This document shows positions 24,001 through 27,000 of a stretch of 64,000 nt of DNA, piece by piece; the stretch's first letter is position 1; every line of letters begins with the position of its first letter. This DNA comes from an uncultured Sulfurospirillum sp. GTDB taxonomy: Bacteria; Campylobacterota; Campylobacteria; Campylobacterales; QNZT01. Position numbers: made by a program. The stretch spans positions 1-64,000 of the forward strand of contig CAZNIT010000026.1 of NCBI GenBank assembly GCA_964573205.1, in the 5' to 3' direction.

Positions 24001-27000
24001 ATAGTATAAAAATAGTCGATATGCCGATAGCTTCCGCATATTTTACGATCAGTTTATAGTCGAAAAAGGAGATCACTTTTGCGTAAGCTCCAACATAAGC
24101 TTTTGAGCGATCGAACCGACGGACTCCTGTCCCCAACCGTTTTTGGCGCCTACGGCGCTATATACGACTTTACCGGTGTGAGTCTCTACGATATTAAAAT
24201 TCAATGCGACTGCCGGTTCGGCGTCAAGTCCGATCTTATAACGCCATTCGTTTATGTTGCCTAGCAAATAATATTTCGTATTGATATCGGATTTCGTTGC
24301 CCGTTTATTTTTATATCTCGGAGAGATTTGTACGGAGCAGTTTTTTGAGATTAAAATCGCTTCCATGATATTTTTCGCCTTCTCTCCGGCAAGAGGAGTG
24401 TCGGTATCGTTTTTAAAAGGTAAAACGGTGATCATTCCGTCTCTTGGAAGATGATTTAGCTGAGAATAGTTCGTAACGCTGGAACATCCGATCAACAAGA
24501 ACGAGGCGATAAAAATCAAACTATTTTTAAGTGCGGTCATGATTGTCCTTTATTAACTTTATTTATATAGTTTAGTGGATGATTGATTAAAACTTAATTA
24601 ATTAGTATATTATTTTTTACTTTAATCGGATAAAATATAGTTTAGGTAAAGTAAATAATAAGTTTTAGAGTTGTGATATCTCTTGACAAAAATTATCTTT
24701 TATTGTAAACTACGCCAAAATCCTCAGAGGAGCAAACGATGAAAAGATATGATTTTATTTCGATTTCCATAACCCGAAATGATTCTTTGCTCCTGCTCTC
24801 TTCTTGTACGCTTGGTAATTAACTCCGAAAAATAAAAGTTTTGGCGATTTTGGTTATTATTTCGCCCTTGACGTAAACATATAAAACAAAATTATATTAA
24901 TTTATTACGAATCTGGAAAAAGAGAGAAGAGATGAAATACAAAAAATTTGAAAAGATAGAGTTGGCGGATAGAAAATGGCCGCAAAACGAGATACAAAAA
25001 GCACCGATTTGGTGTTCGGTTGACTTAAGGGACGGAAACCAAGCTCTCGTAAATCCTATGAGTTTGGAAAAAAAGATAATTTTTTTTAATTTGTTGTTAG
25101 AATTGGGATTTAAGGAAATAGAGATAGGTTTTCCCAGCGCGAGTGAAACCGAGTATCGGTTTTGTCGTCATCTGATCGAAAACGAAATGATTCCCGAGGA
25201 TGTAACGATCGGTATTTTAACGCAAGCAAGAGAGCATCTTATAAAAAGGAGCGCAGAAGCGTTACAAGGCGCTAAAAATGTGATAGTTCATCTATATAAC
25301 TCCACTTCGACGCTTCAAAGAGAAGTCGTATTTGAGAAATCGCAAGATGAGATAGTCAAAATGGCTTTAAAGGGTGTCGATTGGATAAAAGAGTATTTCG
25401 GAAAGTTTGGCGGTTTGGTTACATTGGAATACTCTCCCGAAAGTTTTACGCAAACTGAACTCGATTTTGCGGCTAGGATCTGTAATGAAGTTACGAATAG
25501 GTGGAATCCGAAAGAAGGTGAGAAGGTAATTATAAACCTTCCATCGACTGTAGAAGTAGCGACGCCCAATATTTATGCGGATCAGATAGAGTGGATGTGT
25601 CGTAACCTTGAAAAAAGAGAGGAAATCGTTGTCAGTGTTCACACGCATAACGACAGAGGAACCGCCGTGGCGTCAACCGAACTTGCATTGATGGCCGGTG
25701 CGGATCGTGTAGAAGGTACTCTTTTGGGTAACGGAGAGAGAACAGGAAACGTGGATATAGTGACCCTGGCCTTAAATATGTTCACTCAAGGCGTTGACCC
25801 TAAACTTAAATTGGACAATATCGATAGAATCGTCGAAGTTGCGGAATACTGCAACGAAATCAAAACACATCCTAGACACCCTTATGTCGGTGAATTGGTA
25901 TATACCGCGTTTAGCGGTTCGCATCAAGACGCGATCAAAAAAGGTATGCAAAAACAAAAACATATGAGTTGCTGGAGCGTTCCATATCTTCCTATCGATC
26001 CCAAAGATGTGGGAAGAGACTATAAATCGATCGTGCGGGTCAATTCCCAATCCGGTAAAGGAGGTGTGGCTTTTTTATTGTCGGAGAGATTCGGTTTTGA
26101 TATACCTAAAGAGATGATGCCCTATGTTGCGGAAGTGATGCAAAAAGAGAGTGAATCAAAAGAGGGCGTGCTTAGTGAAGAGGAGATTTATGCTCTATTT
26201 TTCGATAATTTTTTAAATATCGACGAACCGCTTCGTTTAACCGATCTTAAAGTGGCTATTTTGGGTAAAAAAATCGAGGTGTCCGCAAAAATCGATATTG
26301 CCGATGAAATTTTTAAAATGAAGATCGTCTCATCGGGTATCATAGAGGCTATAAGCGAAATGGTAAAAGATTCGGGTGTCGAGTTTGAGATAGAGAGTTA
26401 TTTCGAACACTCTCTTTCAAAAGGAAGTGATGCTAAAGCTGTAAGTTACATCGGAATAAAAATGGATGAAAGACTCTTTTTCGGAGTCGGTTTGGCTGAG
26501 AATATCACTTATTCTTCCGTTAACGCTTTGATAAGTGCAATCAATATCGGATTGAGTGCGAAAAAAGATTCTCTCAAAAGCTTGCGGGTGTATGCTTAAG
26601 GTTTTTTTATGGAGGTTTTAGAGATAGCGGAGATTATCGGTATACTCTCTTTTTCGTTAAGCGGCTTTTTGGTGGCGGGAAGTGCTAAACTCGATATGCT
26701 GGGTATCTTTATCGCATCGTTTTTAACGGCGCTTGGAGGTGGAGTTATTCGTGATTTGATAGCGGATAAAACGGTTTACGCTTTTACCAATAACGGTGCT
26801 TCTGTTTTTGTTATAGCCGTCGTATCGATCGCGACTCTTCTTAAAATAAACAGATACTCTAGTCTCGAGAAAAATCGCTTTTTTCTTTTTGCCGACTCTT
26901 TGGGACTTGTGTCGTTTGCGATTTCGGGAGCGCTTGTCGGTATCGAAGCCGGGTTCAATTTTTTCGGTGTCGTTCTTCTTTCTCTTGTTACTTCCGTTGG

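What the first reader, a model, noticed from the sequence alone, without database searches (positions are those of the whole stretch)
24683..24931. Consensus promoter plus Leu-rich leader peptide (LLLL) upstream of leuA: candidate transcription-attenuation or ribosome-stalling leader
A textbook TTGACA-17-TAAACT promoter is followed by a strong RBS and a 27-codon ORF containing four consecutive Leu codons (TTG CTC CTG CTC). About 110 nt of leader then precede leuA. The Leu-codon segment (24786-24794) is perfectly complementary over 9 nt to the leader's own RBS (24728-24736). Leucine-responsive leader-peptide attenuation is classical for gammaproteobacterial leu operons. I am not aware of it being described for epsilonproteobacterial leuA. 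I could not find a convincing GC-rich terminator with a U-tract, so the mechanism may be translational rather than transcriptional.
Basis: seen in the sequence. Interest (0 to 1): 0.55.

Follow-up and report, generated by a model that had tools for sequence, protein, structure and literature searches.

The report
Leucine-sensing leader peptide before leuA
A short leucine-rich reading frame sits in front of the first leucine-biosynthesis gene and very probably lets the cell tune that gene to its leucine supply; it is real and conserved, but this kind of element (LeuL) was already predicted for this bacterial group in 2013.

Summary
It comprises a TTGACA-17-TAAACT promoter, an AGGAG ribosome-binding site, a 27-codon ORF (24739-24822) with four consecutive Leu codons, a 109-nt spacer and a long-form leuA.

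The small ORF is not chance. All 12 distinct relatives I could fetch (LeuA 62-78% identical, with various upstream genes) have an SD-preceded 24-28-codon ORF. In each, a Leu run starts at codon 16-18, and the Leu codons are mostly CUC/CUG, which are rare in this genome.

The 9-nt complementarity between the leader's own SD and the Leu codons is a conserved helix with compensatory changes. The pyrimidine tract just after the Leu run can also pair with the unusual polypurine leuA RBS, but that pairing is not statistically specific.

No hairpin-plus-U-tract terminator exists in the window, or in 9 of the 12 relatives. The Rfam Leu_leader model does not match.

The best reading is a LeuL-type leucine-sensing leader whose output here is probably unmasking of leuA translation. 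Rho-dependent termination is the main rival.

The kind is already published. LeuL was predicted in Epsilonproteobacteria including Sulfurovum (Porcelli 2013) and shown to be translated in C. jejuni (2025). Leu-codon:SD pairing was described for the actinobacterial LEU element (2005). This is a new member of a known kind, and the mechanism is untested.

The parts
24683..24711 (+). Promoter: -35 TTGACA (24683-24688), 17-nt spacer, -10 TAAACT (24706-24711). The predicted transcription start is near 24718.
   Evidence: The -35 and spacer (CTTGACAAA(A/G)ATTnTC(A/T)TTT) recur upstream of the leader in L081, L082, L084, L085, L086, L088, L178, L213 and L215. The transcription start is inferred, not measured.
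24728..24736 (+). Leader ribosome-binding site (AGGAG) and 5' arm of helix P1 (AGGAGCAAA).
   Evidence: (I4). P1 is in the MFE of all 11 leaders folded. Covariation is shown.
24739..24822 (+). leuL-type leader ORF of 27 codons plus stop: MKRYDFISISITRNDSLLLLSSCTLGN.
   Evidence: Equivalent ORFs occur in all 12 relatives.
24787..24798 (+). Regulatory Leu run, codons 17-20 (TTG CTC CTG CTC). A fifth Leu codon (CTT) is at 24811-24813.
   Evidence: CUC and CUG are the two rarest Leu codons in the window's long ORFs (12% and 8%), but make up 62% of leader Leu codons pooled over the 13 leaders.
24786..24794 (+). 3' arm of helix P1 (TTTGCTCCT), overlapping Leu codons 17-19.
24793..24805 (+). Pyrimidine tract (CTGCTCTCTTCTT; Leu-Leu-Ser-Ser codons), candidate anti-SD for leuA.
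   Evidence: I2: 13 nt, 85% complementary to 24917-24929. The helix is in the MFE and in the consensus fold of the window with L081 and L082. Specificity is not significant.
24823..24914 (+). Spacer between the leader stop and the leuA RBS. It is poorly conserved, has only weak AU-rich hairpins (for example GGCGA 24843-24847 / TCGCC 24862-24866) and no terminator.
   Evidence: It is 58-61% identical to L081 and L082, the lowest value of any segment. No hairpin plus U-tract was found.
24915..24931 (+). leuA translation-initiation region: a 17-nt pure-purine tract (GGAAAAAGAGAGAAGAG) holding the SD.
   Evidence: This is the longest purine run upstream of any of 46 predicted starts in the window (the next longest is 11). 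It pairs with 24793-24805.
24932..26599 (+). leuA, long-form 2-isopropylmalate synthase (555 aa).
   Evidence: NCBIfam NF002991 scores 796.6 bits against a cutoff of 455. TIGR00970 (leuA_yeast) scores 682.5 bits, just under its cutoff of 697.4. Pfam families are HMGL-like, IPMS_D2 and LeuA_dimer.
26609..27214 (+). PF03458 (UPF0126, 'Gly_transporter') membrane protein gene, 9 nt after leuA and probably co-transcribed.
   Evidence: The same leuA-PF03458 pair occurs in L081, L082, L084, L085, L086, L088, L213 and L215.

Best explanation
This is a LeuL-type leucine-sensing leader.

1. A sigma-70-type promoter starts an mRNA of about 215 nt ahead of leuA. Its first feature is a well-initiated 27-codon ORF.
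2. When charged tRNA-Leu is scarce, especially for the rare CUC/CUG codons, the ribosome translating this ORF stalls on codons 17-20.
3. The Leu-codon/pyrimidine tract (24786-24805) is the regulatory RNA segment. When free of ribosomes, its 5' half pairs with the leader's own SD (helix P1). Its 3' half pairs with the polypurine leuA RBS. Both initiation sites are then closed, which is the OFF state when leucine is plentiful or the leader is not translated.
4. A ribosome stalled on the Leu run covers the whole tract. Both SDs stay open, leuA and probably the downstream PF03458 gene are translated, and further ribosomes can load on the leader.
5. There is no intrinsic terminator. Any transcriptional component would be secondary, through Rho acting on untranslated RNA.

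Shown here:
- the parts and their conservation;
- P1 covariation;
- the absence of a terminator.

Inferred:
- stalling at the Leu codons;
- the leucine response;
- that the output is translational.

My estimates are about 0.85 that the ORF is a leucine-sensing regulatory leader, and about 0.4-0.45 that the main output step is SD unmasking rather than termination.
For: The sensor is supported by conservation.
- 13 of 13 distinct leaders upstream of long-form leuA in this clade have an SD-preceded ATG ORF of 24-28 codons.
- In each, 3-6 consecutive Leu start at codon 16-18, usually with further Leu near the stop.
- The upstream genes differ between loci (PelD/lipoprotein, PKD, DUF5718, PGM, NUDIX, HrpB, LRR).
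- The N-terminal residues vary, whereas Leu is kept through synonymous changes (UUG/CUG/CUU).
- CUC+CUG make up 62% of leader Leu codons against 20% in window genes.
- 80 more distant long-form leuA loci, including 16 Sulfurimonadaceae and other Campylobacterales, show no SD-preceded Leu-rich uORF, so the signal is not generic.

Helix P1 is supported by folding and covariation.
- It is in the MFE of all 11 leaders folded and in the consensus folds.
- Own-species duplexes are stronger than cross-species ones (-14.8 vs -13.0 kcal/mol, permutation p=0.002).
- Compensatory A-U to G-C, A-U to U-A and C-G to A-U changes occur at three positions. 83% of cells are paired, against 34-68% when the partner is slid. 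11 of 2000 column shuffles reach the observed value.

The leuA clamp has weaker support.
- A 9-bp helix is in the window MFE.
- It is conserved in the fold of the window with L081 and L082.
- It is strong in L085 (-19.4; UGCUUUCCU:AGGAAAGCA) and L088 (-22.0; CUAUCCUCU:AGAGGAUAG).
- The purine tract upstream of leuA is an outlier in the window.
- The spacer is the least conserved segment, as expected if no terminator or antiterminator lies there.

No terminator was found, and the E. coli positive control was detected.

There is precedent. LeuL was predicted across Epsilonproteobacteria (PMC3847290). LeuL is translated in C. jejuni (PMC11955535). Pairing of a Leu-codon run with the leuA SD is part of the actinobacterial LEU element (PMC1262725).
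Against: - Nothing here measures a leucine response.
- The tract:leuA-SD pairing is not specific. The cross-species test gives p=0.11. 22% of other SD regions in the window pair as well with the tract. The pairing is weak or absent in L081, L084, L089, L090 and L091.
- Masking a stalled-ribosome footprint in silico raises leuA SD accessibility only from 0.37 to 0.45-0.49 in the window, and from 0.48 to 0.51 on average, because other pairings substitute.
- The whole leader does not fold better than shuffles (z=-0.99).
- The P1 covariation rests on perhaps four independent events.
- In C. jejuni the leuL RNA ends just after the stop codon (PMC3847290), which points to termination.
- Ten of the 12 relatives have a hairpin over the stop codon that the window lacks.
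- Most relatives have a C-rich, G-poor leader that could load Rho.
- In Streptomyces, Leu-codon mutations did not behave as classical attenuation predicts (cited in PMC1262725).
Confidence: 0.5

Rival explanations
1. The sensor is the same, but the output is premature transcription termination without a canonical terminator. When leucine is plentiful the leader ribosome finishes and leaves. The exposed pyrimidine-rich, C>G leader RNA then loads Rho (as in tnaC or mgtL), or a weak non-canonical terminator acts, and RNA polymerase stops before or early in leuA. A ribosome stalled on the Leu run blocks this.
For: [quoted passage not shown]
- Leaders of L085, L086, L088, L089, L090, L091, L178 and L215 have 78-nt windows with (C-G)/78 of 0.21-0.28, above the 99th percentile of the window background.
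- Ten of the 12 relatives have a hairpin spanning the leader stop codon, with covarying arms (GCUUAG/CUAAGC, GCUCAG/CUGAGC, GUACUC/GAGUAC). The local-fold z-score is below -1.5 in 7 of them.
- Three relatives have weak hairpin plus U-tail sites.
- Canonical terminators are not enriched anywhere in this genome (18 found against 17.9 expected), so their absence in the leader says little.
Against: - The window itself has no stop-codon hairpin (z=+0.22).
- It has no hairpin plus U-tail.
- Its C>G skew is only modest (0.12, about the 95th percentile).
- Its spacer is poorly conserved.
- Rho dependence cannot be tested in silico.
- This model leaves the conserved SD:Leu-codon helix and the polypurine leuA RBS unexplained.
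Confidence: 0.3
2. The conserved element is an RNA structure read by a protein or another factor, as was proposed for the actinobacterial LEU element. On this reading, translation of the small ORF is incidental and is not the sensor.
For: - Seliverstov et al. 2005 favoured this for LEU elements, because Leu-codon mutations in Streptomyces did not behave as classical attenuation predicts (PMC1262725).
- P1 and the promoter spacer are conserved at the nucleotide level.
Against: - An RNA-only element does not need an ATG 5-6 nt after GGAG.
- It does not need an open frame of 24-28 codons in AT-rich DNA. By my own estimate from base composition, such a frame stays open by chance about 0.18 of the time per lineage.
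- It does not need Leu to be the residue encoded in that frame in 13 of 13 leaders, with synonymous Leu codon changes.
- C. jejuni LeuL is translated.
Confidence: 0.07
3. The ORF encodes a functional small hydrophobic peptide, or it is a chance ORF with no relation to leuA control.
For: The C-terminal half is hydrophobic. Small ORFs are frequent in AT-rich DNA.
Against: - Only the Leu run and the ORF's position are conserved, not the peptide sequence.
- The ORF always travels with leuA whatever the upstream gene is.
- It is the only such ORF in 64 kb.
Confidence: 0.03

Closest known systems
LeuL leader peptides of Epsilonproteobacteria / Campylobacterota (Porcelli et al. 2013, BMC Genomics 14:616; translation shown for C. 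jejuni by Froschauer et al. 2025, Nat Commun 16:3078)
   Same: - The peptide is 20-35 aa with several Leu near the C-terminus.
- It has its own RBS and lies directly upstream of leuA.
- It uses rare Leu codons (CUC/CUG/CUA).
- The published Sulfurovum NBC37-1 peptide (MKTIRIHTTIFTKDCSLLLLLAF) has the same layout as the 13 leaders here.
   Different: - The published work lists peptides only. It gives no RNA structure, no mechanism and no test of the leucine response.
- C. jejuni leuL precedes a leuABCD operon, and its RNA ends just after the stop codon.
- Here the leader precedes a long-form leuA plus a PF03458 gene, with a 109-nt spacer and no detectable terminator.
- I could not fetch C. jejuni DNA to check whether helix P1 exists there.
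Actinobacterial LEU element upstream of long-form leuA (Seliverstov et al. 2005, BMC Microbiol 5:54)
   Same: - An upstream ORF with a run of Leu codons precedes the long-form leuA.
- The Leu-codon run is proposed to pair with the leuA SD.
- No terminator is present.
- I saw such leaders (MLRGLLLSCRGGGH and similar) in the actinobacterial loci L059, L066, L067 and L070.
   Different: - The LEU element has a 13-14-aa peptide and a GC-rich pseudoknot between the two arms.
- Here the peptide is 24-28 aa and no pseudoknot is seen.
- Here the best-supported helix joins the Leu codons to the leader's own SD, not to the leuA SD.
- The resemblance is probably convergent or a consequence of CUC-type codons, and homology is not shown.
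Classical enterobacterial leu operon attenuator (leuL; Rfam RF00512 Leu_leader)
   Same: It has a 28-aa leader with four consecutive Leu codons, including rare ones. A ribosome stalled on them is the sensor of charged tRNA-Leu.
   Different: - E. coli has a -16.9 kcal/mol GC-rich hairpin followed by a U-tract between leuL and leuA, with alternative 1:2, 2:3 and 3:4 pairings.
- None of this is present here.
- RF00512 scores 145.8 bits on E. coli and gives no hit on the window or its relatives.
Translational attenuation by leader-peptide stalling (ermC, cat, cmlA type; from general knowledge)
   Same: The downstream gene's SD is held in a helix with a segment in or next to the leader ORF. A ribosome stalled in the leader opens that helix.
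   Different: In those systems the stall is caused by an antibiotic and the nascent peptide. Here it would be caused by scarcity of aminoacyl-tRNA. Here the helix spans about 110 nt and is weak, and the leader's own SD is also sequestered.
Rho-dependent leader-peptide attenuation (tnaC-tnaA, mgtL-mgtA; from general knowledge)
   Same: There is no intrinsic terminator. A stalled leader ribosome would hide a Rho loading site next to the leader ORF.
   Different: tnaC senses free tryptophan at the stop codon, and mgtL senses proline and Mg2+. A rut site is not demonstrated here, and the C>G skew in the window is only modest.

Membership tests
LeuL leader peptide of Epsilonproteobacteria (Porcelli 2013) | A 20-35-aa ORF with several Leu near the C-terminus, directly upstream of leuA | tested here: met
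   The ORF has 27 aa, with Leu at residues 17-20 and 25, and ends 109 nt before leuA. The downstream gene is confirmed as 2-isopropylmalate synthase.
LeuL leader peptide of Epsilonproteobacteria (Porcelli 2013) | A ribosome-binding site at a suitable distance from an ATG, GTG or TTG start | tested here: met
   AGGAG lies 6 nt before the ATG. GGAG lies 5-6 nt before the ATG in all 13 leaders.
LeuL leader peptide of Epsilonproteobacteria (Porcelli 2013) | Leu codons of the leader are rare codons for the genome | tested here: met
   3 of the 5 window leader Leu codons are CUC or CUG, which account for 12% and 8% of Leu codons in the window's long ORFs. Pooled over the leaders, CUC+CUG is 62%.
LeuL leader peptide of Epsilonproteobacteria (Porcelli 2013) | Host belongs to Epsilonproteobacteria / Campylobacterota | tested here: inconclusive
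   The nearest named LeuA relatives are Sulfurovum, Sulfurovaceae and 'Epsilonproteobacteria' MAGs at 62-67% identity. The window has no rRNA or tRNA marker, and no organism names were attached to the closest clusters.
LeuL leader peptide of Epsilonproteobacteria (Porcelli 2013) | A primary transcription start upstream of the ORF and a short RNA ending just after its stop codon (C. jejuni dRNA-seq) | not testable with these tools
   No transcriptome data are available for this organism. Only a conserved promoter-like site is seen.
Classical ribosome-mediated transcription attenuator (E. coli leu/trp/his type; Rfam RF00512) | A leader ORF with a run of cognate regulatory codons | tested here: met
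Classical ribosome-mediated transcription attenuator (E. coli leu/trp/his type; Rfam RF00512) | A Rho-independent terminator (stable hairpin followed by a U-tract) between the leader ORF and the structural gene | tested here: not met
   The tool scan finds none. My own scan finds none in the window or in 9 of the 12 relatives, while it detects the E. coli leu attenuator at -16.9 kcal/mol.
Classical ribosome-mediated transcription attenuator (E. coli leu/trp/his type; Rfam RF00512) | An antiterminator helix mutually exclusive with the terminator and controlled by ribosome position | tested here: not met
   With no terminator there is nothing for such a helix to compete with. The spacer is poorly conserved and the consensus folds show no such pair.
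Classical ribosome-mediated transcription attenuator (E. coli leu/trp/his type; Rfam RF00512) | A match to the RF00512 covariance model | tested here: not met
   There is no hit even at E<=10 on the window leader, and none on L085 or L215 at the gathering threshold. The E. coli control scores 145.8 bits.
Actinobacterial LEU element (Seliverstov 2005) | An upstream ORF with a Leu-codon run before long-form leuA | tested here: met
Actinobacterial LEU element (Seliverstov 2005) | A base stem formed by the Leu-codon run and the leuA Shine-Dalgarno box | tested here: inconclusive
   A helix between 24793-24805 and 24917-24929 is in the MFE and in the three-sequence consensus. It is not more specific than generic CU:GA pairing (p=0.11; 22% of other SDs pair as well).
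Actinobacterial LEU element (Seliverstov 2005) | A conserved pseudoknot, or alternative hairpin, enclosed by the base stem | tested here: not met
   The enclosed spacer is the least conserved segment and has only weak AU hairpins. Pseudoknots were not searched for explicitly.
Translational attenuation by leader-ribosome stalling (erm/cat type) | The SD of the regulated gene is sequestered by a segment that a ribosome stalled in the leader would cover | tested here: inconclusive
   The geometry fits. The tract 24793-24805 lies within about 15 nt downstream of a P site on Leu codons 18-19. This rests on the known footprint size and is an inference. However, masking the footprint changes predicted SD accessibility only modestly.
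Translational attenuation by leader-ribosome stalling (erm/cat type) | Induction of translation of the downstream gene on stalling | not testable with these tools
   This needs reporter fusions or toeprinting.

The most novel reading that the evidence does not exclude
In this lineage the leucine leader works with no terminator at all. One pyrimidine-rich Leu-codon tract acts as a double anti-SD that closes both the leader's own ribosome-binding site and the leuA ribosome-binding site. A ribosome starved for Leu-tRNA opens both at once. This would be a self-locking, purely translational amino-acid attenuator, convergent with the actinobacterial LEU element on the same long-form leuA.
Probability: 0.3. 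Interest if true: 0.5.

Novelty: new member of a known kind. Interest (0 to 1): 0.3.

Why it matters
Leader-peptide attenuation is textbook for enterobacteria, but its mechanism has not been tested in Campylobacterota as far as the papers read here say. Intrinsic terminators are not enriched in this genome.

This locus and its 12 relatives give a compact, alignable set of leaders. They show what is conserved and what is not.
- Conserved: promoter, SD, frame, Leu run, and the SD:Leu-codon helix.
- Not conserved: the spacer, and any terminator.

That turns 'LeuL exists' into specific testable models, namely SD unmasking versus Rho. It also links the epsilonproteobacterial leaders to the unexplained actinobacterial LEU element.

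It also suggests that the PF03458 membrane protein co-transcribed with leuA is leucine-regulated. As a discovery it is modest, because the element type is already in the literature.

Tried and rejected
1. Known RNA families. Rfam at E<=10 on 24300-25300 gave only chance hits (snoZ169 and others). The whole window at gathering thresholds gave nothing.

2. Genome-collection scan with LeuA. These have no Leu uORF.

3. Metagenome scan with the promoter pattern.

4. A long-range helix between the 5' end (CGCCAAAATC, 24713-24722) and TTTTGGCG/GATTTTGG (24839-24853). It is strong in the window (-13 kcal/mol) but not conserved (cross-species p=0.49), so I rejected it as a family feature.

5. A stop-codon hairpin acting as attenuator. 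It is present in 10 of the 12 relatives but absent in the window.

6. A second promoter in the spacer (TTGACG-16-AATTAT, 24868-24895). It is not conserved in L081 or L082.

7. The built-in terminator scan missed the E. coli leu attenuator. This is probably because it extends the stem through the A:U pairs. I therefore wrote my own scan and validated it on E. coli.

8. Column-wise pair counting on the MAFFT alignments failed. The SD-to-ATG spacing differs by 1 nt in the window, L082 and L090. I counted pairs on a hand-anchored register instead.

9. In-silico ribosome masking gave only small changes, so it neither supports nor excludes the translational model.

10. Organism names for the closest clusters were not available.
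Full report
**Observation.** The region reads exactly as described.
- TTGACA (24683-24688), a 17-nt spacer and TAAACT (24706-24711) form the promoter-like site.
- AGGAG at 24728-24732 lies 6 nt before the ATG at 24739.
- The 27-codon ORF 24739-24822 encodes MKRYDFISISITRNDSLLLLSSCTLGN. Its Leu run is TTG CTC CTG CTC at 24787-24798.
- A 109-nt spacer follows, then a 555-aa ORF at 24932-26599.
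- AGGAGCAAA (24728-24736) is perfectly complementary to TTTGCTCCT (24786-24794).
- The large ORF is a long-form 2-isopropylmalate synthase. NCBIfam NF002991 scores 796.6 bits against a cutoff of 455, and TIGR00970 scores 682.5 bits, just under its cutoff of 697.4.
- A PF03458 membrane-protein gene follows it 9 nt later.

**Is it more than chance?** The single-sequence statistics are mixed.
- A run of 4 or more Leu in 26 random residues has P about 0.002.
- This is the only SD-preceded small ORF with such a run in an intergenic leader in the 64 kb.
- The promoter match is not special in this AT-rich DNA (60 found against 56 expected per 20 kb).
- The whole leader does not fold better than shuffles (z=-0.99).
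- The Leu tract pairs as well with 13% of other SD regions in the window as with its own, because CUCC-type codons are generic anti-SD sequence.
- The decisive evidence therefore has to be comparative.

**Relatives.**
- The genome-collection scan gave only LeuA relatives at 57% identity or less. The protein search found closer ones at 62-78%, and I fetched their contigs. One more came from a metagenome pattern scan.
- That gives 12 distinct relatives plus the window.
- Every one has an SD-preceded ATG ORF of 24-28 codons upstream of leuA, with 3-6 consecutive Leu starting at codon 16-18. Examples are MKTSNMISIFTIGNKTLLLLSSSFLGK, MKTFKMISILIIKSSPLLLLLFLA, MKRYVYASYTTTRFDALLLLSAFLLSL, MNCFFVIHNPSFGIQSLLLSLLLKTL and MYSIRDCHHTIGIFSLLLLLNLPTA.
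- The gene upstream of the leader differs from locus to locus, so the ORF travels with leuA.
- The N-terminal residues are not conserved. Leu is kept through synonymous changes.
- CUC+CUG, the two rarest Leu codons in the window's genes (20% together), make up 62% of leader Leu codons.
- As a negative control, 80 more distant long-form leuA loci show no SD-preceded Leu-rich uORF. These include 16 Sulfurimonadaceae and other Campylobacterales.
- The -35 box and spacer (CTTGACAAA(A/G)ATTnTC(A/T)TTT) are conserved in 9 of the 12 relatives.

**RNA structure: helix P1.** The helix between the leader's own SD and the Leu codons (P1) is the best-supported structure.
- It is in the minimum-free-energy fold of all 11 leaders folded and in both consensus folds.
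- Own-species duplexes are stronger than cross-species ones (-14.8 vs -13.0 kcal/mol, permutation p=0.002, n=13).
- On a register anchored at GGAG, 83% of cells pair, against 34-68% when the partner is slid.
- Compensatory changes occur at three positions. One example is the SD-spacer A paired to the U of a UUG codon in the window, against G paired to the C of a CUG codon in most relatives.
- 11 of 2000 column shuffles reach the observed pairing.
- The number of independent events is small, perhaps four, so I call this moderate support.

**RNA structure: the leuA clamp.** Directly 3' of P1, the pyrimidine tract 24793-24805 can pair with the leuA initiation region 24917-24929.
- The helix is in the window MFE and in the consensus of the window with its two closest relatives.
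- It is striking in L085 (UGCUUUCCU:AGGAAAGCA, -19.4) and L088 (CUAUCCUCU:AGAGGAUAG, -22.0).
- leuA has a 17-nt pure-purine tract before its start. This is the longest among 46 predicted starts in the window, where the next longest is 11.
- The pairing is not statistically specific. The cross-species test gives p=0.11, and 22% of other SDs pair as well.
- It is weak in five relatives.
- Masking a stalled-ribosome footprint changes predicted SD accessibility only modestly (0.37 to 0.45-0.49 in the window).

**Terminators and other structures.**
- There is no intrinsic terminator. The tool scan finds none.
- That scan also missed the E. coli leu attenuator, so I wrote a less greedy one. It detects the E. 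coli attenuator (-16.9 kcal/mol plus U-tract). It finds nothing in the window or in 9 of the 12 relatives, and only weak sites (-5 to -8) in three.
- Canonical terminators are not enriched in this genome in general.
- The spacer is the least conserved segment (58-61% identical to the closest relatives, against 75-78% for leuA).
- Ten of the 12 relatives carry a small hairpin spanning the leader stop codon, with covarying arms. The window does not.
- Many relatives have a strongly C>G-skewed leader that could load Rho. The window's skew is modest.
- A window-specific helix between the 5' end and the spacer is not conserved.

**Mechanism.**
- I commit to a leucine-sensing leader peptide, with probability about 0.85. 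A ribosome translating the ORF slows on the rare Leu codons when charged tRNA-Leu is scarce.
- For the output step in this window I favour SD unmasking, at about 0.4-0.45.
  - The free Leu/pyrimidine tract closes both the leader SD (P1, supported) and the leuA SD (plausible, not proven).
  - A stalled ribosome, whose footprint covers 24786-24805, keeps both open.
  - The footprint coverage is an inference from known footprint sizes.
- The main rival, at about 0.3, is premature termination without a canonical terminator, probably by Rho.
  - It fits the C. jejuni observation that leuL RNA ends just after the stop codon (PMC3847290).
  - It also fits the C-rich leaders of the relatives.
  - The two are not exclusive, because an untranslated leuA 5' end would itself invite Rho.
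- An RNA-only element (about 0.07) is unlikely, given the conserved start, frame and synonymous Leu changes.
- A chance or peptide-function ORF (about 0.03) is also unlikely.

**Comparison with what is known.**
- Porcelli et al. 2013 (PMC3847290) named a 28-aa LeuL upstream of C. jejuni leuABCD. [quoted passage not shown] These include Sulfurovum sp. NBC37-1 (MKTIRIHTTIFTKDCSLLLLLAF), which has the layout seen here.
- Froschauer et al. 2025 (PMC11955535) showed by translation-initiation profiling that C. jejuni LeuL is translated.
- Seliverstov et al. 2005 (PMC1262725) described the actinobacterial LEU element before the same long-form leuA. It has a Leu-codon uORF whose Leu run pairs with the leuA SD, and no terminator. 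I saw such leaders in the actinobacterial loci L059, L066, L067 and L070.
- The enterobacterial Leu_leader model (RF00512) matches E. coli at 145.8 bits but not the window or its relatives. The defining terminator and antiterminator are absent. This is therefore not a member of that family, although the sensor works the same way.

**Verdict.**
Its belief that this was undescribed for epsilonproteobacterial leuA is mistaken.
- It is a new member of a known kind.
- The added value here is the comparative anatomy, with three results:
  - a conserved helix between the leader SD and the Leu codons;
  - a possible clamp on the leuA SD;
  - no terminator.
- This anatomy turns the open mechanistic question into concrete experiments. 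Interest is 0.3.

Noticed in passing
window 24682-24701, and the equivalent sites in L081, L082, L084, L085, L086, L088, L178, L213 and L215: The -35 box and also the promoter spacer (CTTGACAAA(A/G)ATTnTC(A/T)TTT) are almost invariant in relatives whose LeuA is only 66-78% identical and whose upstream genes differ. The motif occurs only once in the 64-kb window at up to 2 mismatches, apart from one poor hit. It might be an operator for a transcription factor, acting on top of the leader control.
   Followed up: partly
window 24541-24682: The intergenic stretch between the divergent 155-aa lipoprotein-like gene and the leuL promoter is 91% identical to L081. That is higher than the flanking coding regions (77-78%). 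It may hold the divergent promoter or regulatory region of the lipoprotein / PelD-like / TPR gene cluster, or something else.
   Followed up: no
window 26609-27214: A PF03458 (UPF0126, 'Gly_transporter') membrane-protein gene follows leuA by 0-18 nt in the window and in 8 relatives. It would therefore be under the same leucine leader. This hints at a role in leucine or branched-chain metabolite transport. It matches NCBIfam only weakly (NF007874, 78.7 bits, cutoff 326).
   Followed up: no
L084 2390-2406, L085 2384-2400, L086, L088, L090, L091, L178, L213, L215 (leader stop codons): A 4-7-bp hairpin encloses the stop codon of the leader ORF in 10 of the 12 relatives. Its arms covary (GCUUAG/CUAAGC, GCUCAG/CUGAGC, GUACUC/GAGUAC, GCGU/ACGC). 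The local-fold z-score is below -1.5 in 7 of them. It is absent in the window, and its function is unknown.
   Followed up: partly
L081, L084, L086, L088 and L215, about 25-45 nt after the leader stop; window about 24839-24862: A U-rich motif (GAUUUGAUUUUUUGUUU and variants) is conserved at the sequence level in an otherwise diverged spacer, and is followed by a short GC hairpin. It is not a terminator in either orientation and remains unexplained.
   Followed up: partly
window 24713-24722 vs 24839-24853: The predicted 5' end of the leader RNA (CGCCAAAATC) is perfectly complementary, over 8 nt, to two overlapping sites (TTTTGGCG and GATTTTGG) in the spacer. This pairing is not conserved in the relatives.
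   Followed up: yes
L178 (minus strand), spacer between leader and leuA: A near-perfect hairpin of about 29 bp (ATCGGCTTTTCAGTGGACGCTGTGCGGGG ... CCTCGCGCAGCGTTCCCTGAGAAGCCGAT) is inserted in the spacer of this relative only, lengthening it to 174 nt. It may be a small repeat or mobile element.
   Followed up: no
L059, L066, L067, L070 (Actinobacteria), 140-210 nt upstream of leuA: Short ORFs such as MLRGLLLSCRGGGH and MLNMRLLLRSRGEA precede long-form leuA in these loci. They correspond to the published LEU element.
   Followed up: partly
window 24919-24891, minus strand: A promoter-like site (TTTCCA-17-TATAAT, 10 of 12 matches) points antisense into the leader. It is most likely chance in AT-rich DNA.
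   Followed up: no
proteins P0004 (880 aa) and P0116 (794 aa): Two LeuA homologues at 58-60% identity are much longer than the rest. P0116 carries several methyltransferase Pfam domains fused to LeuA. They could be gene fusions or gene-calling artefacts.
   Followed up: no
L217 (E. coli leuL-leuA): The built-in terminator scan did not report the textbook E. coli leu attenuator (CCCGCGC-CATT-GCGCGGG followed by T7). This is probably because the stem is extended through the flanking A:T pairs. Negative results from that scan should be read with this in mind.
   Followed up: yes
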